Under the pieces are notes generated by a model. That model saw only the letters and a list, made by a program, of their open reading frames with translations. It was not told where the DNA came from and did no database searches. This document shows positions 2,321 to 18,800 of a stretch of 64,000 bases of DNA, one piece after another; position 1 is the first letter of the stretch; every line of letters begins with the position of its first letter. The stretch is from Hydrolagus colliei. Its lineage: Eukaryota. Both the position numbers and the translations under genes were made by a program. Location: contig CM068764.1 of the NCBI GenBank assembly GCA_035084275.1, positions 6,448,001 to 6,512,000 on the forward strand, read 5' to 3'.

Positions 2321-3039
2321 TATCACCAAATTTTAATTTGTAATTTTGATAATCTTGCATCTTCAGTGATGTGTACAATGGTACATCAAAAAAAAATTCA
2401 CTATACAATCCATTTACTGAAACTGCATCAAAATGTTTTGGAAGTTCATTCCTTTAACAAAAATGGTTTGAGATATGTATATGTGGTGTAAATTATCAAC
2501 ACAAGTACCGGTATATCACTTTTTTATACTTTGGGCCCTAGATATTAATCTCTAGTTTTACAAATCTTTATAAATACAAATGGTGGGAGAGTCTGTTACT
2601 GGCCGTCAATTTTTCTCAGCTCCCCTGTTTATCCAGTTATTTAACTAACTCTTCAGATTTTTGACACTCTATCACAGTATATAATCCAGATTCTGATATC
2701 AAGTTTAATCATCTCCTCTTGTGTCTGTAATTCATAATCCTGTTGATGATTAACTTTGTCCACTTACCCAGTCACTGAGTCTAATTCAAACAGATGACCA
2801 CAGCAACTCCAGGAGTGTCCATATTTAGCTTAAACAAAATCCCTTCAAAGAACACTGTGCACTTTAAGTAAAACACAGAATGACCTGGAAACAAAAATGA
2901 CTCCATTTTATTTTATACTACTCTAGCATATAGTGGACCAACTTTGCAAAGAAGGGTTTGTTTCCTATTTTCTCAATTTTCAATTGATTTATTGGTTCAT
3001 GTGTATCGTATATCATGCAAGTTGTCATCCAGCAGAAAA

Positions 3040-3627: not shown

Positions 3628-3786
3628 TGACCATCACACGTGTGTCCAGGTCCCACTTCATGGTCATAATCCAGGGCAATGTGCTGCACCAATTTCAGTT
3701 GCTAGGAAGAACTTGGGTTCCAGTCCAACAACTGTTCTGTAATTGCCATCTTTTCATAAAACCAATTCCCAGCTCATGACAGCAGC
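3628..3786 (+). other. MYO18A: 5' UTR part of the putative alternative start exon
   Basis: Strong acceptor ctttctgctttccactttctctgtacttgcag|3628, followed by ATG at 3787 in a strong Kozak context (agcATGG). Confidence 0.55.
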
Positions 3787-3825
3787 ATGGCTTTCTCATC
3801 ACGGTTTGCATTTTGGGAGAAAAAG
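3787..3825 (+). CDS. MYO18A: Alternative (gamma/MYO18B-like) first coding exon [13 protein letters not shown]
   Basis: 13 codons resembling the recalled MYO18B start MAISSRLALWEQK. Ends AAG|GGAAGT (non-canonical). Alternative canonical in-frame donor AAA|GTAAGC at 3963. Confidence 0.7.
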
Positions 3826-6800
3826 GGAAGTCCTGTTTTAAAATATGAATCATTTACATTTGCAATTAGCAATAAATCGTATTTGACATGGTGGTTCTTA
3901 GGTTGGGTTGTAGTAATGAGGAGTCTTACTACCTCCTCAACAATTGGGTGGGCGAAAAACAAAGTAAGCTTTTACTTGAAAATTTTATACACTTGCTGCC
4001 AAGGAAAATTGATTATATAAAATGCTTCTAGTTCTGGGAATTTAGTGTTTATTTAGTGTTGAATCTCCTACTGCTGGGTGCCTGTGGTAAAGGCAAAAAC
4101 TGTTCATGTTTTGTGTTTTATCTATTCTTGTGTTATACTTCTATGTTTTCATAATAGCAAGTAATACTGTTGAAGCTCAACCAGGCAGCAAGAAATTGAG
4201 AAGCCTCAAGGGATTTATTGTAGATACAAACCATAAATACTTCATTATCTCATCCAATTCCATTTAAATCAACAAAGGTTTTCAAAAAGGAACTAGACAA
4301 GTTCCTGTCATAGGACTCTGGGCTATTATATTTATTGCTAGATATAGTATATTGATGGAACATTGTGAAAAATTGGATGAGTAGGTGGGATGGATGATGT
4401 TCTACTTCTGCCCGAAATTGTTTAGTTTGGCTTTTATTCTGTAGATGTTACAAACTGCACTGCTAATTACATTTTTTTCAAATTTAACTAACATTGTTTA
4501 AAATGGGTAGAGTATATTTATTATGCATAATGTATAGTCTGATAGTAAATTAATTAAAAAAATTATGGATAATTAACTCTCACAAATGTATTAATTGGGA
4601 TTATTGGGATTATTATTGATGCATTTATACTAAGAGATTTAGAACTGTATTAGCTTTACATACTGTATTACAGTATTATAAATTCAATTTTGCTGGAGGT
4701 GTCCAGTTTTAACTGAAGTGATATGGACACTGGTGCATGGTATCTTCAAATTCAGACTGTCATATTGCAACCTCATCCTATAACTAATTAGGTTAAGGAG
4801 GAAAAACCTTTGGATAAGAAAAAGGTTGTCCAAGTGGAATCTCTTGATGAAGACCAACAGCAAAATTGTGCACAATCTGTAAGTTTCTTAAAATGGTTGT
4901 CATGTTTTTAGAATCAGTAACTCACATTTGTGTTCAGTGCAAATTTGCTTTTAGATCCAGTTTTTAAAAATTGTATTTATATTATCCTGTCTGTGTTAGA
5001 TTCAAGATGACTGTCAAACGCAGTTGCATTTAATACTTAGTCAGTTTTCTGAAAATCATACATTTTACAGGAATGCTGATGACTTTATATTTGCGTATTT
5101 ACTGCAGAAAATATACTTTGTCAGGTCACCTAATTAGTTTAATGACCATCAAAGATATCTGACCCATCAAGGGAATGTTCAATAGAAACTAAACTTGCAT
5201 TGGAAGTGTTACAGTTTTCCATTAATCAAGAAGTATAAAATGGAAAATTTGCATTTCTGCACTTGCTTTTTTAATGCCACAGCAACCTTGTGGTTGGCCT
5301 TCTCTTACTGGAGATCGTGATTGATACTGCATCAGCAGATGCAGTAGATGTGTTGATTTCATTTGGGCATGGAAGGTTTCCAAAGATCCTCCTGTAAACG
5401 ACTGGATCTTAGAAGATGTGCTCAGGTTAGCCTTTTTAATATTTTTTTTCTACTGTGCTTTGAATTGAAAAAGCTGGGAGCTTGAATTAGGTCTTGTTGA
5501 GAGCTCCAGTATGACTTGCAATATGGATTGCTGAAAAAAAAGTTGTTTCTTTATAGGAAGGAACGGCATAACTGGTGGGCTAGAAGGCAGATGGGGCTTG
5601 CTGCAGTGCAGCATATTAACTATGCTGTTCTTTGAGTCTTTCTGCGTGGGACTTATTCAGTAGTGTGTGAACAAAACCTAATAAAAGTATAGGCTTCAGT
5701 TTCAGGCATGCAATAGCTGCATGATAAATAATATTTTGCACACAAAAAATCAGGAAATTAGCAGATGTAATGAAGATTAAGACACTGCAGTTTGCTGCAG
5801 GTATTTTGCTTTGCAAGATATACATGAGCTAGAAAGAAAGCTACCATTATGTAACCCAATATTTTTAAATGGACATTTTAAAGTGGAGGTTGGTTGTACT
5901 GTATTTAGATGGTGGAGTAACACATTTTCTTTCTATTTGCACATTCTTATTGGATTAAATACTGCAAGCCATTTAGGGTGGGGACAGAATCCTCATTTAA
6001 ATATTCCACAATCAATGATATTTTACAAAATATTTTGTGAACATTCTGCTGATTGGGAAGAAAAACAGCTGGTTATATATTATAGTAGAATTGAAAAGGC
6101 CCTAAATATTTTAAAAGCAACTTGCACTGGTCTGTTTTCATGTGCATGTATGAAAATAAGGAAAAACAAAAACATACTTCTTTGGTTTGTAGTTTTAGTT
6201 TTATTTGTGTTCAGTGCATATGTAATATTGCTGAACAGTTAACAAAAGTGGAATATTAGAATTAGGTCTTTATTTTCGTAATGTTATTGCTGCTAACAAA
6301 CCAGAATTTATGGAGAAGATTAATTTTAACTTTTATTAATGCATGGACATAACACTCATTCTAATTATGAAGTTGTTTGTTGGATGGGGAGGGAAATTAC
6401 TGTACAGTCATTTTGAAACCACAACTCTGGAACCAATCTTTTAGGTAATGTTTCCTGCTGTTGTGCATTTGAGAGTATTTTTGCTTAATATTGTATATTT
6501 TTTTGCTTAATAGATAAATAGCTAAAGTGTGATATCAATGCACTTTAATACTATACATTTTAAATATAATTTATATTATAAAGCTGCATTACTTATGAAA
6601 GTAATACATTATTACCATTGTTATGTATTAATTATTCAAGGTTTAGGGACGAAACTAGACTTATCATATAAATATAGCTGTTCTTAACTAATACTTAGTT
6701 ACCACATTTGTATTTACTCTAGTTTTATTCCTTTTGCTTAATGTGCTTGCTACCTGCCATGTCATTCATCTGCTATAGCTTTTCTTTCTACCATTATAAT

Positions 6801-9800
6801 TTATGGAACATTTTGTTTTGCGGTATGTTAATTTAGTTGGAAAATGGTGCAAATACTAATGTGGTGAATGACAGGGAGCAGATGATCAGCAGTCCGCAAC
6901 CGGAGATAAATGGTGAAAATGGAAGTTCAACTGAACAATTCGGAAGCAAGTTTAACATACAAGAGAAAATAAAACAAGATATGCATACTGAGAGCCAGAC
7001 TGAGTTGCTTCATGAGGACCAGGGAGTTCCTCATAAGAAAGTGGCCAAAGCGGCTAAGAAAATGATGCAGAAGGTTTTAGATGAAATAGACAGTAAGGGA
7101 AAGGTGAAAGAGACAAAATCTAGAAAGCAACCAAAGGAAAACAAAGTAGAGACCAAGCCAGTTTTAGAAGCAACAGGGCCATCTAAAACGGAGAGTAGCA
7201 AGACTGCGCTACATGTTAGGAAAAAAGTTCCTATTCCTACAAAAATAGAACCAGCAACTCCAGGAAAGAAAACTACAGTTAAAGATGATATATCAGTGGG
7301 GTTGGCTAGCCTAATGACCCGGGGAAAATCAAAAGATCACAAACCTCGGCGAGTCCCAGAGAAGAAGGAGGAAGTTGTTGAGACTTGTCCGGATGATTTA
7401 CTGAACAAAAGAACGGCTTCCCCTCCTTTGGAACAATTCAAAACACAACCAGACAAACTACAACAGCAACAATTGGTTAAAAGCGAGGTATTTCTTCTGA
7501 AAAGCATGTACCAACTAACCAGAGTATGTGTGCAGTGTACCAGAGATACAGAAATAAAAGTTTTACTGAAGTTTGTGTTTTATCCCAATGCACTTTGTAA
7601 AATCTGCTTGGAAACTTGAACAAAAGACTGCTTGGATAGTGAGTGGCATGGAGCAATACTGAACCGTACTGTGCAAGGATATTGATTCTAACTGTGTCTT
7701 GCACCATTCTTATCTTGGTTCACTAACTATTTGGGCACGAGAAATGATTTGTCATCCTGAAACGTAGTTGTAGAATTGTGTGGCCTAACTTGAAACTGTT
7801 TACACATTAGACTAGAATTCGTTCAGATTTTTAAAAAATATTCAACTCTATGCATGATGTGCTAAGAAACTATGAATATATAGTATTATAAAATTGAGGG
7901 TTTTTTAAATTGTTTCGCTAGTCTCATTGAGGAATTAACCATGGTTAGTATATGGGATATTCAAGGCATGTCATTTCATGGTCTTTATTTATGGTCTTTG
8001 TATTTACAAACAAGTGCACTGTTTTACCCCCCTTTTCACCTATTTGAAGGAGAAGGTACTTCTCAATGAACAACAAATATCTGATCAGGAAAAGTTGCCC
8101 TCATCTATTATTGAAGAACCTCTACCAGATTTTACAAAGCAGGTGTGTAGCCGGTGTGTGGAGAGGAGGAAGGGAGAATAAAAAATCATACAGATAGTAG
8201 ATGAAACTTCTAGGCCAGCCATGTGGAACTTTGTGGAAAGATCAGGTGTAGCAAGTTATAACCTGAGTGAATAGTTATGCTTATACAGTATGCATGTGAT
8301 TTGCAATCAAGGTTCATGAGTGGAATTTGAGAAAAGCATGGGAGCATTTTCATAGTTTCTGACAATGGAAATGTAACCTTTGGACTGTCCTTTTTGCACC
8401 AGACTGATTGTGCATGTTTCTTTTAATCTGGCAACAAGACCTTTGACTTTTTTTAAATCCTGAATTATTTTTCATGTGTACATCTAGTTTTTTTTTACAG
8501 TTTGGCAAATATTTATATCATCTTCAAGGCATTTTGATCAAAAGTCTTTCTAATTTGGATTGTATAAATTCTGCAAAGGAAACCAGTGGGCTTCAGTTTT
8601 CAGAAATATCTAAAATGAATCAAAGTATATATGATATGTATGATTTTAGATTTGCGGTATCTTTTCTAGATACTAGAAAAGAGTAGATGCATACTATATG
8701 AAAGCTGTAGAGTAATTCATACTGTATGAAAGCTGTAGAAATCCACATTTTATATAATGACAGCTAACCCTTAATTTGCTGACAATTCTATGGAGAATTT
8801 CTTTTTAGATAGATGGACTGTTGTTGTTTCCATTTGGTTGATGAACTAAGAAATTGATTTTACTGTTGGCCATGTGACCTTTAGGCCCAAAGGATATCTC
8901 AACAAATGACCCCAACGGACAAAGCTCAGATGACACTGGAGAGAATCTTCTTTCTTTCTGTAAAAACAAACATTTTATTGAACAATACTTGAGTGTCTTG
9001 AATAATCCTGTCTGAACAATTTGCTATCGGGAGTTCATATTTAACACTTGTTGCCTTGCTTTAATAATTGCGGTATTCAGTATTGCACAGAGCTAGCTGT
9101 ACAGTACAATTTAATATATTATTTGAAAATATTCAGTTATAACATTGTAAAATTTTAATAGTAGTATATGCTAACTGTATGATAACAGAGGACTATGATT
9201 AGGAACCCCTCTGGAATATTTCACCATTACCACATAGATCACAGCATGATCGAATTACATCTTATCAAACTTGTTTTTTTTTACCTTTAATGACATTTCT
9301 TATCAAACTAATTGTAATTTTAGCAGTCAGCGTGTTTAACAGACTTCCCACATCAATGTACACTACTAGGTACAAATTGATATGTAACTAATGTCTTGAT
9401 TCACTTCTGAATACCCTCATCTTGGAACATTCATTGAATATTTATATTAGTAGACCAACTAAATACTATATTGTGTTCTAGAACTTGCTTTGATACCTTT
9501 GAACCTTGTGAAATACACCAATCTGTTGGAACTATATTTCATATTTATTTTTAATGCACAAGTAGTATTTGTTCCAATTATTTGAGTTCAGCAGGAGTTT
9601 TAAACCACTGGCATGTTTTGATGAAGCTGCTGATAAACTTTGACTTGGTATTTGCTGAGCACATTCTGAATGTTTTCCGGTTGTTTGAATGAATGCAGTG
9701 CTTTGTTCAAATATTTGAGTTTAATTTCATGTTCAATTTGAATTGGTGTTCATGTTGACATATGCTTCTTGAAATTGCTGTGTTAAAAGTGATCATAGAT

Positions 9801-12800
9801 ACAGATAAAAAAAATGTTCATGAAGTAATGATAATTCTTCTGCATTATGCTTAATGTGACCTGTTAAAAGCTATTGCAACCACAATGTTAGCATTCCTTT
9901 TTGTCTTAAAGGTGAATAATTTATCATTTGTGCCTTTACAACTTCTGTAGTCTTTCAGCAATCTACTTCTATCAATTTGCAAAATTGTGATGCATAGTGT
10001 GAGATTTCAGAAGATGTAGATCTATGTTCATGGTATATGTTGAAGTGAAAAAAATCAAACTCCGTCATTTTGGATACTACAGTATAATAAAGACTACAGC
10101 AGTTCATAAAGATGTGCTACAAAATAGTTTGTGAAGTAACCAAGAATTCACTACATTAGCTCTCTCATTATTTCTGTATGCGTGCTGTGATTTGCTTAGT
10201 AACTTCATCTTTTTCTCTTCATTCTCATTTTTACATTTGTATCTTGTTTCTTTCGCCTTGCATTGCTGTCACAGCCGGAACCTGTGGTCCCATCTCCTCA
10301 GAGCCTTGTTCCCTCTCAGGATTCCTACGCTCGCTCCAACGATCTCGCACAGGCAGGTGTCTGCGTCTGGGCTGGTGTCTGTGCCCGTGTATCATGCTGG
10401 ACTGTAAGGCTGCCTTCATGTCTATCCTGTGGTGCCTTTTCTTTCCATCTCCGCTACAGCACTTTTGCTTACTTTGCTTGTACTGTATTCTGCTCCTAAC
10501 ACATTTCAACAATGTCAAAGGTGTGCTGGTCTATTCAAATTCACCAATCATAAAGAACTTGATTAGGTAAATTAGGTGTATTCCAAAACGTGCAAAATGA
10601 AGCTCAATTTGCTATACCTGTGGTGTCATTCCAGCGTAATACTATCAGTTATTTTTATTAACATTGTTTTCATGTTTCACTTACAATCCCCGATTCTATT
10701 TGTTCACCTGTGAGAAAATTAATCATCTGAACAAATTAAAGTAATAAACAAAATAAAAGAAAAAAAGTAATTTCAATTCAGCCATCGTCGATTTAACTAA
10801 GGTGCCAGCCAGCGGTCTCAAGAAGATGCAATGATGTTTTTGTTTGAAATGTGATGACATTACATGTTAAGATATAAGATATGCACCAATGTTTTTAGGA
10901 CACTTCAATTTAAGTGTTGCCTGGAGTGAAATATGATGTAAATGCCTCTTTTCCCATGCCTTAATTCCCTAAAGGGAATTAAATATATTCTGGATTTACT
11001 TGGAATTTAAGGAGGAAACGCTCCAAATTGGATTTGTTTTAAAAGAAAATACAATTTGGCATTAAGCTTCACAGAGACTGTCATAGAGTTAAGAATTTTC
11101 TTGCAGTTATATTCTAGTTCAAACAAGGTTAGTGATTGTGATGTTAATTGTACAGGGTGTAAAGCTGGGTTTTGGTATGTAAAATTAGACACCGAATTAT
11201 AAGCTGCTGATATTCATTTCCGGGATAGACTAGCGGGCTTCCTGCATGTCTGCAGAAAGCTAGTTAGTCTATGCCGGAAACTGGAACTGTGTCACACTTC
11301 TGGTAACTGCTGGTTCACTTGAAACTCACTTTATAAGAGAACTTTAATGAGATATATTATAATGAGGTCGCCCTGCATTCATAAAAAGACAGGTGTGCAA
11401 AACGGCAGATTCCACTGCACTACAAGCCTTGAGAACGTTCGAGTGCTCCATTCTAAAGAACAATACCTCTTCCATATTTCCACCTACAGAATAGTGAATA
11501 GTCTGATTATTAATACAATGAGTATTTAGCTTCTGTAAAATTGATATGCATGCCACATCTTTTTTATTTAATTATGTAAATTGTATTTATTTGAAACTAT
11601 GGTTAGTTTATAGTTGTAGTTTGACACCAATGTGATTTTATGTTACACTTTCTTGTGTTTAATTAGTATTGTAACTTAAATTTTAAAGCTGTAAGTAGAA
11701 AAGTACTCAACAAAACTAATGCACATAAATACAGTACTCCCACTATCAAGTTGAAAACACTAGCAATATTCAGGAAAGTACTGAAGATTTTAGAATGGCA
11801 CTTTTTTTTAACAAGGTGTACTTCTTGTGAAAAAAAATTTGGATAGTTGTTGCGAGCATTGATCAGGAGTTGCACATTACTGTAGAATGATCTGGTAACT
11901 TTTCAAAAGGCTAATAATGTTAAATATTTGTGTTTAACTGACATTTATAGCTTTTTTGTTTCTTTTCTCCAAATTTCTCCTGTTACCTTTCAATTTTGCT
12001 CTTCCCTTCCTAGTATTGTAATTTGATTGAGACATGAGTTTAGAAGCAGAGAGTGGAATAAGACGGCTACACATTAATGTAGGAGTCTCAATACTGAGGA
12101 CTTTTGTTATAAGCACATCTAAGAATTATGTTTAGGTGGAAAAGATGGGACTACATAAATCCCAAATAAAAATAAGGATTATGTTTCATTGTGTGTCACA
12201 AAACCACAATACTGAATAGAATGCAATGTGAAAAGTATGTGTGAAAGACAGAATAATGTTATTTTTAAATCTTGGTTTGCTTTGCACTGCTGCGCCTATG
12301 CTGCTGCTCTCCAGAATCAGGTGGAAGAGGTACCAGTGTCTGTGCTGCAATCTCCCTCAGTATCTGCTTCTACTGAGCCCCAGGTTGGCATTTACACATC
12401 AACACCGTTTGGCGAAGTATAGCTTTTGTAAAGTGCCTATACATTGTGTAGTCCTCAGCTTCAAGTGTGCCTTCATCTCATGTGTTATTTTCTTAGGTAT
12501 TCATGTTCGTCTTTGCTTGTAAACCACAAGATTATAGGTTAATTATTTTCAGACCATTTATACAAAGAACGAGTTTTATATGTGTCATCACAGGTTTGAC
12601 TTTGTATTCTTTTTAATTTTTTCAATAGTGCTGGCATAAGTAGGTTTTGGCGGAAGCCTTCTCATAAAATTCGAGTCAAATCAACCTTTTAGTATCAGTG
12701 CCATATGTACAAAGTATAATTTAATGGAAGATTTCATGAATTTTTTAAATTGTCCTATAATTGCATTTATTTATTCAAAACCCCAAATGTGAAATATTCA

Positions 12801-15800
12801 GAAAAGTTTAGCTTGTAGGGCCTAAAACAAATCTGGAGTCATATTAATTGCATTGTTTTCCGGATGTAGGGATGGAATAATTTAATGTAATCAATGTTCA
12901 TTCAACGAAATTAATATTTAAAGATTTGGTTATTTGGACTGCTCATTACATATTAATGCCTGCACTATTGTTCATAGATTATCATTGCATCTCATTGTAA
13001 TTTTGGCTGAAGGAGTCGATTAATTTTGAATCTTTGTTTTGGCTCTTTTCTTTATGATTTGCAGAGTGTGCTTGGTATTAAAGGTTTACTAATTCATTAA
13101 GTGAATGTTTAAAATTTTGTTTATAATTGTCAGCACCAGTCATGTACTGTTGTGCATAGTGTGCAGCAAACTAAAATCAGTAATCTGCAATTACTGTGGC
13201 TTTTGTGGCATTTGACAAAGCAATAGCACTGGGTAAATAGGGTGAACAAAAGACTATTTCTGGTTTTGCTACCTAAAATGAATCAGGAAGGGTACAGTCA
13301 TGTGGTAAAAATATCCTCCACTGTCTCTTTACCCCACTTACCTCTAAAACCTTCTTGAACCTTCCCAACCCACCTTCGCAGCAGGGAGATACTGACTTGC
13401 TTTACGTCCCCTGCATTGCCTGACCCAACATTATTGGTTGAACTCAGTCTATCTGCCCTACTCTCTCTCTGGAACTTCATTTCAGAGTCCCTGTACTCTC
13501 CCCTTGCCTCCTCGAAGGAACATCTCAAGACCTTCCTCTTTTGACTGTGCCTTCAATCATTCTTCTCCCCAACCACTTTGTCCTTCTAAATTTTCCTAAA
13601 TTTAACAACTTCCAGCTTGGGTGCAAATCCTCAACTGACCAGTAGCTTGGGATGTGGGAGGAAATAAATGTAATTTGTTGCTGCTGTTATAATAGCTTTG
13701 CTCACAATGTGTATTAGGTAATTCTCTTAATGTGTGTTAGATAATTCTCTAGTGGTAGACGTGTGTGCTGTAAAAATATAATGTTTTTGTGTTCTAAAAT
13801 TTCAAATTATATTTGCTACAGCATTTATTTAAAGTGTGTGAGTAAGAGAGAGAGACTGCATGTCTATAATGAGTGACAAGAACGTATGCATGCCTGATAT
13901 TTTAATCGAACTGACGTCCAATTTCTAATTCTAGCTGAAGACAGAAGAGCAGATTGCTGTAGAGCAAGCCTGGTATGAAGCCGATAAGGTGTGGCTGGCC
14001 CACAAGGATGGATTTTCATTAGGTAATCCAGATAATAATTCCTTTCCATCGTTGGATGAATAAGAATGAAGTTCCAGATTTTAAAAATAGTATTTTCAGC
14101 AATGTTCCTACGTCAAAAGGATAACCTGCTTTCCAAGCAGCAAATCCAGCATGTCTAGGATATGGGGAGCTATGCTCCAAATTGTGTTATCATTTTATTT
14201 TCCCTCCTGAACTGTCTCGTATCAGATTTATTCAATGTTGACAGCTTCATCTGAAACCATTTTCCATTTCTACAGAACTGTTACAACGATTATCAAGGCC
14301 AGTGAAAGAAGTTCCACCACCACCACCCCCGGCATACTTTTATTTCTAAACACTTGGCGAATAGCTAAATATTATTGCCTAAAATATTCAAGATGTATAG
14401 ATTTATTTAATCTCTCATGTTAGTAAATCTCTATCTAGAAATTCTCTTGACACTGTGAAGTCTCAATTCATGTGAACATGATTGACCTGCACCTTCACAT
14501 CCATATGAATATTTGTCAGATTTTCCTCCTTGCAGTGCCTAAATTGTATTCGTCATCTCATTTGTGTGAAAATTGAATAGAGAATTGAACAGAGATTTCA
14601 CTACATTAGGGTGACTTGTAGGTCAAGGCAACTATTCATATCTTGTGATGACAATTTTTGAGTATTTCGATGGCACTCATCTTGCTGATGACTTAACAAT
14701 TGATGAGGTGTTTTAATGTTGTATTTTAGAATTATAAATTTATTAGTTAGAGTGGGTGGATTATGATTGCACTCGGTCTTTCAACTTGTCTATTTCTGCA
14801 AATATGATGTTCAGAACATGCCAGATGAATGCATTTTTTTAAATTATCTAGTAACTAGTTTGTTAAGCTACTTTAATCTTAGACCAATTCTTAATTGACA
14901 CAAAGCTAATATCTCTGAAATTTATTTAGTATAATTGTAGAAATTGTCCAATCTTTTTGGGTGTGTCTTTTAAGTCTAAAGCGGCTTTTATTTTTCTAGG
15001 TACTCAGTTAACGGCTGATGCTGAAGAATCCAGCCTCCCTGAAGGCAAAGTGAAAATTAAACTGGACCATGATGGAAAAATACTGGATGTGGATGAAGAT
15101 GATGTGGAGAAGGTATTTTTTTTTCATATCTCAAATTAGTTCTGGGGTACAAGAACACCATGTTTGAAACGAGAAGAGGTTATTCTGTCCATTAAACAAT
15201 CTGCTTCCCCAACCATATACAATCTTCTCGTCATCAATTCCCTATTTCTCATTTGACTTGTTGCCTGTACTCTCTAAACTCCAAAATGGCTGTGCTGTCC
15301 AGGTATTTTTAAGTTGAACAATATTTACTATCTTTTACTAATTGTAGTCAGAATGACTAAACTGTGTCATTTAAATGATTAGTTAATAAAGATTTAACAC
15401 TCCTTTTCCAAATAACGAAGAGCTTTAATATCAGAAGTGTTGTGACTTATCATAGAGTTAAGGAAATGGTTGGCCAAATGAATCATGGTACATCACCGCC
15501 ATACACCTCCAAATGTATTGTGTTTGCATTAGTAATTATTGTTGTATTTAAACAGGCAAATCCACCAACTTATGACCGAGTGGAAGATCTTGCTTCCTTG
15601 TTGTATCTCAATGAGTGCAGTGTTCTGCACACATTACGCCAACGCTACGGCGGTAACCTGATCCACACATTTGCAGGGCCAAACATGGTTGTGGTGAATC
15701 CGCTCAGCTCTCCTTCAATGTACTCTGAAAAGGTATGTCTTGAATATTGTTTTTTTCTGGTGTGCAATTGTTACATACTGGCAAACATACATACCGTATA

Positions 15801-18800
15801 TCTCCGCGTATAAGGCGCACTTTATTTCAGGTCGGAAGATCTCTAAAGTAGGGGGTGCGCCCTATACGCAGGTACAAGCAATTTTGAGCCTCGGAGATAC
15901 AGTAAACAGGGGGGGTGGCCGGCGCGCTGTCAGCCGGGGTTTGGTCAGTGTCCGGCGGGGGTTGGGAAGAGCGGGTGACGGGGCTTCGGCCTCGGCCGCC
16001 CGGGCAGCGGCAGCAGCAGCGGACTTCAGTGCTGTGCTTACCTTCTGCCGAACCCAGTCTGCCTGCCTCACTCCCTGCCGCTCTCTCTCCCTGCCTGCCN
16101 NNNNNNNNNNNNNNNNNNNNNNNNNNNNNNNNNNNNNNNNNNNNNNNNNNNNNNNNNNNNNNNNNNNNNNNNNNNNNNNNNNNNNNNNNNNNNNNNNNNN
16201 NNNNNNNNNNNNNNNNNNNNNNNNNNNNNNNNNCCGCTCTCCCTCCCTCCCTCCCGACCTGCCGACCTGCCACTCTCCCTCCCTCCCGGGCTGCCGGCCT
16301 GCCGCTCTCCCTCCCTCCCTCCCTCCCTGCCTGCGTGCCTCTCTCCCTACCTACCTGTCTCTCCTGTCTCTCCTCCCTTCTGCCGGCAATATCATTGAAA
16401 ATGCTTCCGTTTTCTTTCACCAAGAAAAGGTCAAAAACGGGGGGTGCGCCTTATACGCGGGTGCGCCTTATACGCGGAGATATACGGTATGTGACAGAAT
16501 ACTTACACAGTGAAACGCTCTGAGACCCCGTCTGGCGTGGAGGGCGCTATATAAATCAAAGTTGTTGTTGTTTAAACCAATTGATCCAATTTTGAATGAC
16601 TGGTTGCTTGCGTTATGTTTGAAAGTTTGTTGCATATATAATGTGTGTGTATATATTATATACAGTAGAAGCTCATTTATCCGTGACTCGATGAACCGGC
16701 ACTTCCGTATAACTAGCAAGCCAAAACAAAAGTCCCCATTCGATAAACCGGAACTTATCCAGAACAATAGCAGTGAAGCATTTGTAAATGCATAAATAAT
16801 AACATAATAACAGAATGTTGTATTGGTACTTATTTTTAAAACTACTCTCTTGCGCTTCTCATCTTTACTAGTAGCTGCTGCTCTTGAAGCCATGATGCTG
16901 CAAGGTTGAGGTTTATAATCCAGTAATTCTTTTTAAAATGGAGCACGCCAAGTGGGTGAGAAAAACGGAGCACGATTTTAAAGCCATACTAGCGGCAAGC
17001 CGATAATGCTAGCCGATAACCCACATTGTCGCGCAGGTGCAGTATTTCAGTTTGCTGGTAGTAGAGTCTAGGGCTATCTGCTTGCCTCTGGTAAAGTCGC
17101 AAGATTTTAAACTCGAGCTACCGTTTTTTTCACCTGCTTGGCGTCCTCCATTTAAAAAAGAATCGCTGGACTGTAAACTTCAATCAGTAAAAGGTGATAA
17201 GCGCAAGAGAGTAGTTTTAGCAATAAGTACCAATACAATATTCTGTTATTATTTAGTCTGGTATGTATGGTGTGTGTTAAAATAACTTTAATTTTTTTGT
17301 GGTGGGTTTTCAGCCCCGGGCCGCCCGAATATTCGGCAGGCGCTTTACCCGGCATTGGCCAAGTCCCGCGGGTGCCGGATAAACAGGCTTTTACTGTATT
17401 TCTTAATATGTATATATATTTTATATATATATCTATGGAAGAAAATTTGCTGTTTATTTACAAGCATATGGAAGCTGATTGCGTTCTTGTTATAGGTTAT
17501 GCACATGTTCAAAGGTTGTCGTAGGGAAGATACTTCTCCACATGTGTATGCTGTTGCACAAGCTGCGTATCGAAACTTGCTTACGACACGACAGGACCAA
17601 TCTATTGTTCTTTTGGGACGAACTGGCAGTGGGAAAACCACAAACAGTCAGCACCTCGTTCAGTATCTAGTCACAATTGCAGGCAGTACAGGAAAGTTCA
17701 TCACGGGTAGGTGTAAAGTCCAAATTCAAACCATAACTTGAGATCTCAAGTTATGGAGAGTTTTCCTTTTACGTAAAAATATAATTTTTATGCTTTTAGT
17801 ACCATAGGTATCCTTCTTAAATTGAACTGAGACTTCCATTGATTGCTATCTCTTCCAATGTTTGAACGTCACAGTGGAGAAATGGCAGGCTGTGTATTCT
17901 ATTTTGGAGGCCTTTGGCAACAGCAGTACAAGTATGAATGCCAATGCCACTCGCTTCTCACAGATCATCTCGCTCGACTTTGACCAGACTGGTCAGGTGG
18001 CTTCAGCCTCTGTACAGGTGAGAAAAAAAGAGGTGCTTCAAAGAATATTTTGAGTGTCTTGACTGGAGAATTTCAACCTTCAATCTAGATTCCTTTTTTA
18101 AAAAAAAATGAGGGATATGAACATACCGTGTTGCAAGCTTTAAATACAAAGCTACCTCCATAACAGCAGCGTGATCTCCTTCTTCAAGTCCCGCCTGAAA
18201 ACCTCCCTTGTTGACTGTGCTTATAGTCACCTCCCCCACCGGCTCCGGTATTGTTAAGCACTCGACCCTGCGTGGAGGGTTCTATGTAAGCGCATGTTGT
18301 TGTGATTTATGAAGACATACATAAAAAAATTCTCTTTAATAGACCATGCTTTTGGAGAAGCTCAGGGTTGCTAAGCGTCCAGAGAATGAAGGGACATTCA
18401 ATGTGTTCTATTACCTGATGGCTGGAGCCGACAATGCTCTCAGGTACTGTTGTATAACTGATTTAAATTAATCTATGCCTTTATGTTATGTAACAATACA
18501 AATGACTTCCACGGCTAATTTTCTTTTTATTTTCCCATTTACAGAACTGAGCTTCACCTGAATCACTTTGTAGAAAACAGTTTGTTTGGAATTACACCAT
18601 TATCAAAGGTATTATTAACTATCTTCAGTTAAATATATCCCACGATGATTAATTGTAAAGTTATCCTTCCTTCTCTTCCCCTCCCCTATCCACAAGTCCG
18701 GCCAACCAAGGTATAAGTGTACTGCTAATTTTGGCTATAAAAAGGGAAGATGAAAAGAAACCTGATTTCATTGCATTAAAATTGGCAATAGTGATAGATT

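What the first reader, a model, noticed from the sequence alone, without database searches (positions are those of the whole stretch)
3628..12383. Hidden six-exon alternative N-terminus resembling the MYO18B / muscle gamma-type start
Seen: exons 3787-3825, 4792-4878, 6837-7487, 8050-8142, 10275-10352 and 12315-12383 all end in phase 0 and join in frame to 13935, giving ~339 aa with no PDZ. Recalled knowledge: MYO18B begins MAISSRLALWEQK|IREE, and a striated-muscle Myo18A-gamma isoform with its own N-terminus exists in mouse. Here [17 protein letters not shown] has the same 13-codon first exon. Inference: this start predates the 18A/18B duplication and is retained in a cartilaginous fish. No long polyproline run is visible.
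Basis: partly seen in the sequence, partly recalled or inferred. Interest (0 to 1): 0.7.

Follow-up and report, generated by a model that had tools for sequence, protein, structure and literature searches.

The report
Muscle myosin-18 start, rare splice donor
A chimaera-type fish's myosin-18A gene holds seven extra exons matching a front end already predicted in sharks, bony fish and a turtle, likely the muscle version known from mouse, and the first exon ends in a rare GG splice signal at the codon where human MYO18B uses a rare GA signal, possibly an oddity older than the two genes.

Summary
The exons are real. They lie in MYO18A of a holocephalan, between the PDZ exon upstream and the first shared motor-side exon at 13935. 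They match PDZ-less MYO18A models from 12 jawed vertebrates (six elasmobranchs), so the isoform is not hidden, and the likeness of the mouse Myo18A-gamma and Myo18B starts is already published. Corrections: a seventh exon (8885-8959) was missed; exon 10275 has two donors (GC at 10353, GT at 10404); and the first coding exon has no GT donor, reading AAG|GGAAGT. No shift of the junction makes it canonical. Human MYO18B has an RNA-supported GA-AG intron that maps, from published coordinates, to the same place, after codon 13. A second DNA contig, absent from the assembly, aligns from this ATG to 13 bases past the donor; its letters were not shown. Best reading: a gamma-type muscle N-terminus spliced through a weak GG donor, with a canonical donor 87 nt upstream that drops the conserved peptide. 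No RNA was available, and donors of other MYO18A genes could not be read. The scan's notes held nothing on this.

The parts
3628..3825 (+). Exon with 5' UTR (3628-3786) and the 13 first codons (ATG 3787, [13 protein letters not shown]); has an AG acceptor, so an upstream exon is expected but was not located
   Evidence: 13 of 13 residues identical to paddlefish model P0161, 12 of 13 to shark models
3739..3744 (+). Canonical GT donor inside the 5' UTR (TCT|GTAATT); its use would skip the ATG at 3787
   Evidence: the Mustelus model P0267 starts with a peptide resembling this UTR and joins the next exon at the equivalent point
3826..3831 (+). Non-canonical GG donor AAG|GGAAGT, consensus at every position except +2
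   Evidence: same letters in DNA run X1
3964..3969 (+). In-frame cryptic GT donor AAA|GTAAGC, would add 46 residues (rival)
4792..4878 (+). Coding exon 2 (29 codons, VKEEKP...)
6837..7487 (+). Coding exon 3 (217 codons) with conserved basic block and KDDISxGLxSLM block
8050..8142 (+). Coding exon 4 (31 codons), cassette in shark models
8885..8959 (+).
10275..10403 (+). Coding exon 6 with two phase-0 donors: GC at 10353 (26 codons) and GT at 10404 (43 codons)
   Evidence: both forms occur in shark models
12315..12383 (+). Coding exon 7 (23 codons)
13935..14022 (+). First exon shared by all MYO18A isoforms (SH3-like domain start)
   Evidence: an unnamed contig-derived protein P0001 joins the PDZ exon straight to it

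Best explanation
These seven exons encode the PDZ-less alternative N-terminus of MYO18A, likely the orthologue of mouse striated-muscle Myo18A-gamma, and the first coding exon is likely spliced after codon 13 through a weak non-canonical GG donor. Shown: exon set, phase, homology across jawed vertebrates, the GG letters, a serine-rich alternative last exon downstream, and a GA-AG intron at the same codon in human MYO18B. Inferred: an internal promoter drives a transcript in heart and skeletal muscle; U1 recognises the GG site because all other positions match consensus; the canonical donor at 3739 competes with it, so donor choice would decide whether the invariant 13-17-residue tip is made; the roughly 364-381-residue, low-complexity extension with short conserved blocks would target the motor-dead myosin to sarcomeric A-bands as in mouse.
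For: Gene identity and layout. Orthologous exons in order. 19 of 356 retrieved proteins (12 species) begin with this peptide and 0 of 19 has an insert after residue 13; the next residue comes from exon 2 (17), exon 3 (1) or the shared exon (1), fixing the boundary. Serine-rich last exon 75% identical to sawshark model, E 2.6e-166, at 77751-79127. GG context: G.AAGT occurs at 56 of 56,148 intronic positions; only 1 of 37 roughly placed donors of this gene is AG|GTAAGT, so a freshly broken ordinary donor would seldom look this perfect. Human MYO18B GA-AG intron chr22:26157098+26159197, 846 reads, heart and skeletal muscle among 6 tissues (PMC4176328 supplement); rs133885 p.E44G at 22:26159289 places its end before c.40. 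GG-AG U2-like introns exist in human (CPSF3). In DNA run X1 a second 730-nt contig lies ungapped on 3787-3838 with 10 other letters in 52 (rough chance 0.003).
Against: No RNA holder was listed, so no junction was seen in this species (no evidence either way). X1 may be the assembly's own source, and contigs drop rare alleles, so a G/T heterozygote is not excluded. An in-frame GT donor exists at 3964, reached by chance from only 1311 of 54,933 intronic starts (2.4%), and a weak one at 3835. Automatic models in 12 species contain the junction, which is also what canonical donors there would give; their DNA could not be read. MYO18A is not in the human non-canonical list. The mouse gamma polyproline helix is absent. 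None of the 5 C. milii cluster members starts with this peptide.
Confidence: 0.66

Rival explanations
1. The GG is a recent GT-to-GG loss in this lineage. The transcript uses the upstream GT at 3739 or another first exon, and the protein starts at a later Met without the conserved tip.
For: Models of 8 species among those listed have the gamma body without this start, and one Mustelus model uses the upstream donor. Changes at +2 usually abolish splicing (PMC4176328 discussion).
Against: The 13 codons are intact. Perfect consensus elsewhere is rare among this gene's donors (1 of 37). Human MYO18B splices a non-GT donor at this codon. The missing starts could equally be annotation failure at a non-canonical intron; at most 15 members per cluster were listed.
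Confidence: 0.14
2. The GG site is unused and an in-frame GT downstream (3964, or weak 3835) rescues the frame, inserting 46 or 3 residues after residue 13.
For: The frame stays open to 4020 and AAA|GTAAGC is in phase 0; chance about 2.4%.
Against: 0 of 19 orthologous models has an insert there; residues 1-17 are the best conserved block of the extension.
Confidence: 0.12
3. The GG is an assembly error or one allele of a polymorphism, and the donor is an ordinary GT.
For: One base decides it; only one DNA run was available and it may be the source.
Against: X1 contigs at depth 50 differ from the window at 12 places in 12 kb but not here.
Confidence: 0.06

Closest known systems
Mouse Myo18A-gamma (Horsthemke et al. 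2019; paper not held, seen only through reviews PMC11112018 and PMC7900500)
   Same: PDZ-less, KE-less alternative N-terminus from inside the gene, plus a long serine-rich alternative C-terminus.
   Different: No polyproline helix here; muscle expression and A-band location untested; the mouse sequence itself was not retrieved.
PDZ-less MYO18A database models starting MAFSSRF (e.g. Scyliorhinus canicula XP_038670218.1 = P0142; sawshark P0127; gar P0166; box turtle P0330)
   Same: Same start, same exon order, same two donors of exon 6, same serine-rich end.
   Different: Predicted models, not studied proteins; their donor letters are unknown; bony vertebrates have 14-18% Pro against 6-8% in cartilaginous fish.
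Human MYO18B GA-AG intron (Parada et al. 2014, PMC4176328, supplementary table)
   Same: Non-GT U2-like donor after codon 13, phase 0, in the paralogue with a similar N-terminal tip.
   Different: GA rather than GG; RNA-supported; listed in a table, MYO18 not named in the main text.
GA-AG donors of FGFR genes (as described in PMC4176328 and PMC7072748)
   Same: Non-canonical donor kept in paralogues, used beside a canonical one.
   Different: There the helper GT lies 6 nt upstream; here the donor-like GT is 87 nt upstream and skips the start codon.

Membership tests
MYO18A gene | KE/PDZ exon, class-18 SH3-like and motor exons, coiled coil, in order | tested here: met
   C. milii MYO18A P0002 maps exon by exon from about -18,760 to 77,110; PF24556 at 13932
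Myo18A-gamma (mouse definition) | Alternative N-terminus without KE region or PDZ, from exons between the PDZ exon and the motor | tested here: met
   No Pfam family at E<=0.1 in the six exons scanned; the 13-codon exon is too short to scan; layout
Myo18A-gamma (mouse definition) | Long serine-rich alternative C-terminus | tested here: met
   Exon at 77751-79127, 75% identical to P0127; joint use in one transcript not shown
Myo18A-gamma (mouse definition) | Polyproline II helix in the N-terminal extension | tested here: not met
   Longest P run 2, at most 5 P in 20; same in five elasmobranch models. Hence filed as gamma-like, not as identical to the mouse form
Myo18A-gamma (mouse definition) | Extreme N-terminus similar to Myo18B | tested here: inconclusive
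   Stated for mouse in PMC11112018 (figure not visible); no MYO18B or mouse gamma sequence retrieved; boundary after codon 13 matches human MYO18B
Myo18A-gamma (mouse definition) | Striated-muscle expression and A-band localisation | not testable with these tools
   No RNA holder listed
PDZ-less MAFSSRF-start MYO18A models of jawed vertebrates | Conserved 13-codon start and ordered downstream blocks | tested here: met
U2-like non-canonical donor (Parada et al. class) | One mismatch to GT with U2 consensus around it, no canonical reading by shifting | tested here: met
   AAG|GGAAGT; shifts -6..+6 tested
U2-like non-canonical donor (Parada et al. class) | Not an error or polymorphism | tested here: inconclusive
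   Same letter in run X1, which may be the source
U2-like non-canonical donor (Parada et al. class) | Junction supported by RNA | not testable with these tools
FGFR-type dependent GA donor | Canonical GT 6 nt upstream | tested here: not met
   No GT between 3805 and 3829

The most novel reading that the evidence does not exclude
The intron after codon 13 of the muscle class-18 myosins has carried a non-GT donor since before MYO18A and MYO18B duplicated, drifting between GA and GG without reverting to GT. It would act as a conserved splicing throttle, competing with an upstream canonical donor, on whether the sarcomere-targeting tip is made, and would explain why many genome annotations drop this start.
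Probability: 0.42. Interest if true: 0.68.

Novelty: new variant of a known kind. Interest (0 to 1): 0.5.

Why it matters
The isoform itself is known, so finding it in a chimaera mainly dates it to the jawed-vertebrate ancestor and suggests that proline richness is a bony-vertebrate addition. The donor is the point of interest. Non-GT/GC donors are very rare (184 U2/U12-like non-canonical sites of all kinds in the human survey) and are poorly predicted by SpliceAI (TOGA2 preprint). A non-GT donor at the same codon in two paralogous, essential sarcomeric genes would be independent evidence that the gamma start is ancestral to both, would point to regulated muscle splicing, and would matter for annotation and for reading variants near MYO18B c.39, a myopathy gene.

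Tried and rejected
Homologue search with exon 6837-7487 among longer proteins found none, but it was limited to 2000 aa and full gamma forms are longer. ESM Atlas: no usable hit twice. PDB sequence search with a motor exon: 0. No RNA holder listed. The original Myo18A-gamma paper is not held under DOI, PMC id or PMID. MYO18B was not found in the assembly by four exon searches, a 1033-aa query of which 44 of 92 candidates were scored (70), PF24556 (56) and three first-exon patterns (45, 75, 97; the last gave 11 hits against 11 in the control, only the window itself exact). Its expected neighbours (SEZ6L- and ASPHD2-like, named from recall) sit on a 39-kb contig that ends, so absence is not shown. 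A pattern hit on C1 was chance: no myosin in 100 kb. First-exon patterns in metagenome and prokaryote contigs: 0. No SEZ6-like hit in 120 kb downstream (weak test). A homologue of the shark M(P/Q)EDRNQ first exon was not found. Muscle factor motifs upstream are scattered and were not tested against chance. Literature searches listed no paper on a non-canonical donor in MYO18A or on shark Myo18A-gamma; most subscription papers and figures are outside the library, and supplementary file 1 of PMC4176328 was not searchable. Four look-ups in earlier scan notes gave nothing relevant.
Full report
Gene and organism. The window is G000:C31:6448001-6512000. A KE/PDZ exon lies about 18,760-17,770 bases upstream of the window start. 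It is 94% identical to Callorhinchus milii MYO18A and about 70-75% to tetrapods and bony fish, which places the animal among holocephalans. That protein maps exon by exon across and beyond the window. Flanking frames resemble SLC6A4, NSRP1, beta-crystallins, a connexin and PIPOX (names from my recall of the translations).

Observation. The six stretches are open, phase 0 and give 339 codons. A search with the C. milii motor region returned full-length models (best 120 of 3803 hits listed), and cluster look-ups added members (at most 15 listed per cluster). Of 356 proteins held, 19 from 12 species (six elasmobranchs, five ray-finned fish, one turtle) start MAFSSRF[AS]FWE[QK]K. Their N-termini hit every proposed exon in order and reveal a seventh at 8885-8959, with AG and GT ends. 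The exon at 10275 has a GC donor at 10353 and a GT donor at 10404; a rough motif count found 6 short and 50 long forms among the 356. Exons after the first also appear behind the PDZ exon in many models, so they form a shared cassette zone. A serine-rich last exon lies at 77751-79127 (75% to the sawshark model). The full extension is about 364-381 residues, has no Pfam match in the six exons scanned, 7.6% Pro and no run over 2 Pro, like sharks (6-7%) and unlike bony vertebrates (14-18%). Conserved blocks are residues 1-17, a basic K/R-V block, KDDISxGLxxLM, the LERIF block and WAGVCARxSCW.

What is known. Two reviews (PMC11112018, parts 1-4 of 6 read; PMC7900500, passages read) describe mouse Myo18A-gamma as a striated-muscle isoform without KE or PDZ, with a polyproline helix and a serine-rich tail, in A-bands and essential for the heart. 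They state that class-18 heads have negligible ATPase activity, that MYO18B arose by duplication in vertebrates, and that the first 19 residues of gamma and Myo18B are highly similar. PMC11285346 (passages) links gamma to an internal start site and the heart tube. The original paper could not be read.

The donor. After codon 13 the DNA reads AAG|GGAAGT. The equivalent cuts are also non-canonical. The protein models fix the boundary: 0 of 19 has an insert, and two skip from residue 13 to later exons. Contigs of DNA run X1 differ from the window at 12 places in 12 kb but not here; X1 may be the assembly's source. The context is consensus except at +2. G.AAGT occurs at 56 of 56,148 intronic positions, and only 1 of 37 donors of the shared exons is AG|GTAAGT (donors placed roughly from blast ends, 2 unassigned and several doubtful). 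That fits a compensated non-canonical site better than a recently broken ordinary one (inference).

The paralogue. The supplementary table of Parada et al. 2014 (PMC4176328; passages, discussion and searches of supplementary files 2-3 seen) lists human MYO18B chr22:26157098+26159197 as a U2-like GA-AG intron, annotated, with 846 reads in six tissues including heart and skeletal muscle. rs133885 is p.E44G (PMC3591001, passages) at 22:26159289 (PMC8633773, table). E to G changes the middle base, c.131; 26159289 minus 91 is 26159198, the first base after the intron, so the next exon starts at c.40 and the GA donor follows codon 13 (my arithmetic; it assumes one genome build and no intron in between). 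MYO18A is not in that table. MYO18B was not found in this assembly (see Tried and rejected). But X1 holds a 730-nt contig at depth 12 that lies ungapped on 3787-3838, from the ATG to 13 bases past the donor, with 10 other letters (rough expectation 0.003, not corrected for free ends). It is probably the paralogous exon or a homologue from another animal; its letters were not shown, so its +2 base is unknown.

Competing donors. A canonical TCT|GTAATT at 3739 lies in the 5' UTR. A Mustelus model (P0267) begins with a peptide resembling this UTR and joins exon 2 at the same point, so the site is likely conserved. Among listed models, 8 species have the gamma body but lack the conserved start, as expected if pipelines miss a non-canonical intron or transcripts use the upstream donor; only part of each cluster was seen. 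Against my reading, 12 species have the junction in automatic models, which canonical donors would also explain, and an in-frame GT at 3964 could rescue the frame here (chance 2.4%).

Mechanism and verdict. Most likely an internal promoter gives a muscle transcript whose first coding exon is joined through the GG donor to a cassette zone and the shared myosin body, often with the serine-rich tail, producing a motor-dead scaffold for sarcomeres as in mouse (0.66 for the whole; about 0.9 that the exons are the gamma-type N-terminus). That the non-GT donor is shared with MYO18B by descent is plausible but unshown (0.42). My searches listed no paper making this link. Interest 0.5; a new variant of a known kind.

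Noticed in passing
window 3787-3838, run X1 record 2: A 730-nt contig at depth 12 aligns from the ATG to 13 bases into the intron with 10 other letters in 52; no such copy was found in the assembly.
   Followed up: partly
window 3660-3841: Three upstream ATGs in the exon: a 39-codon uORF ending at 3779, an 8-codon one, and one at 3776 overlapping the main ATG out of frame; the UTR resembles the start of Mustelus model P0267.
   Followed up: partly
window 3628: The acceptor is followed at once by TGA in phase 0, so splicing from the PDZ exon to it would stop translation right after the PDZ domain.
   Followed up: no
window 17496-17705: P-loop reads GRTGSGKT; shark and ray MYO18A have GRSGSGKT. 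The review gives R at this place for mouse Myo18B and S for mouse Myo18A, so R may be ancestral.
   Followed up: partly
window 2819-2828: MADS-box-like site CCATATTTAG about 800 bases upstream of the ATG exon; significance not tested.
   Followed up: no
G000:C309 (L036, L054-L056): 39-kb repeat-rich contig with ASPHD2-like and SEZ6L-like exons and a short secreted-peptide-like frame; probably from the region where MYO18B should lie.
   Followed up: partly
upstream, about -60,000 to -35,000 of the window start: Two beta-crystallin-like genes on opposite strands and an intronless connexin frame lie just upstream of MYO18A.
   Followed up: no
window 15700-17500: Repeat-like low-complexity insertions in motor-domain introns, with an N run at 16100-16233.
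   Followed up: no
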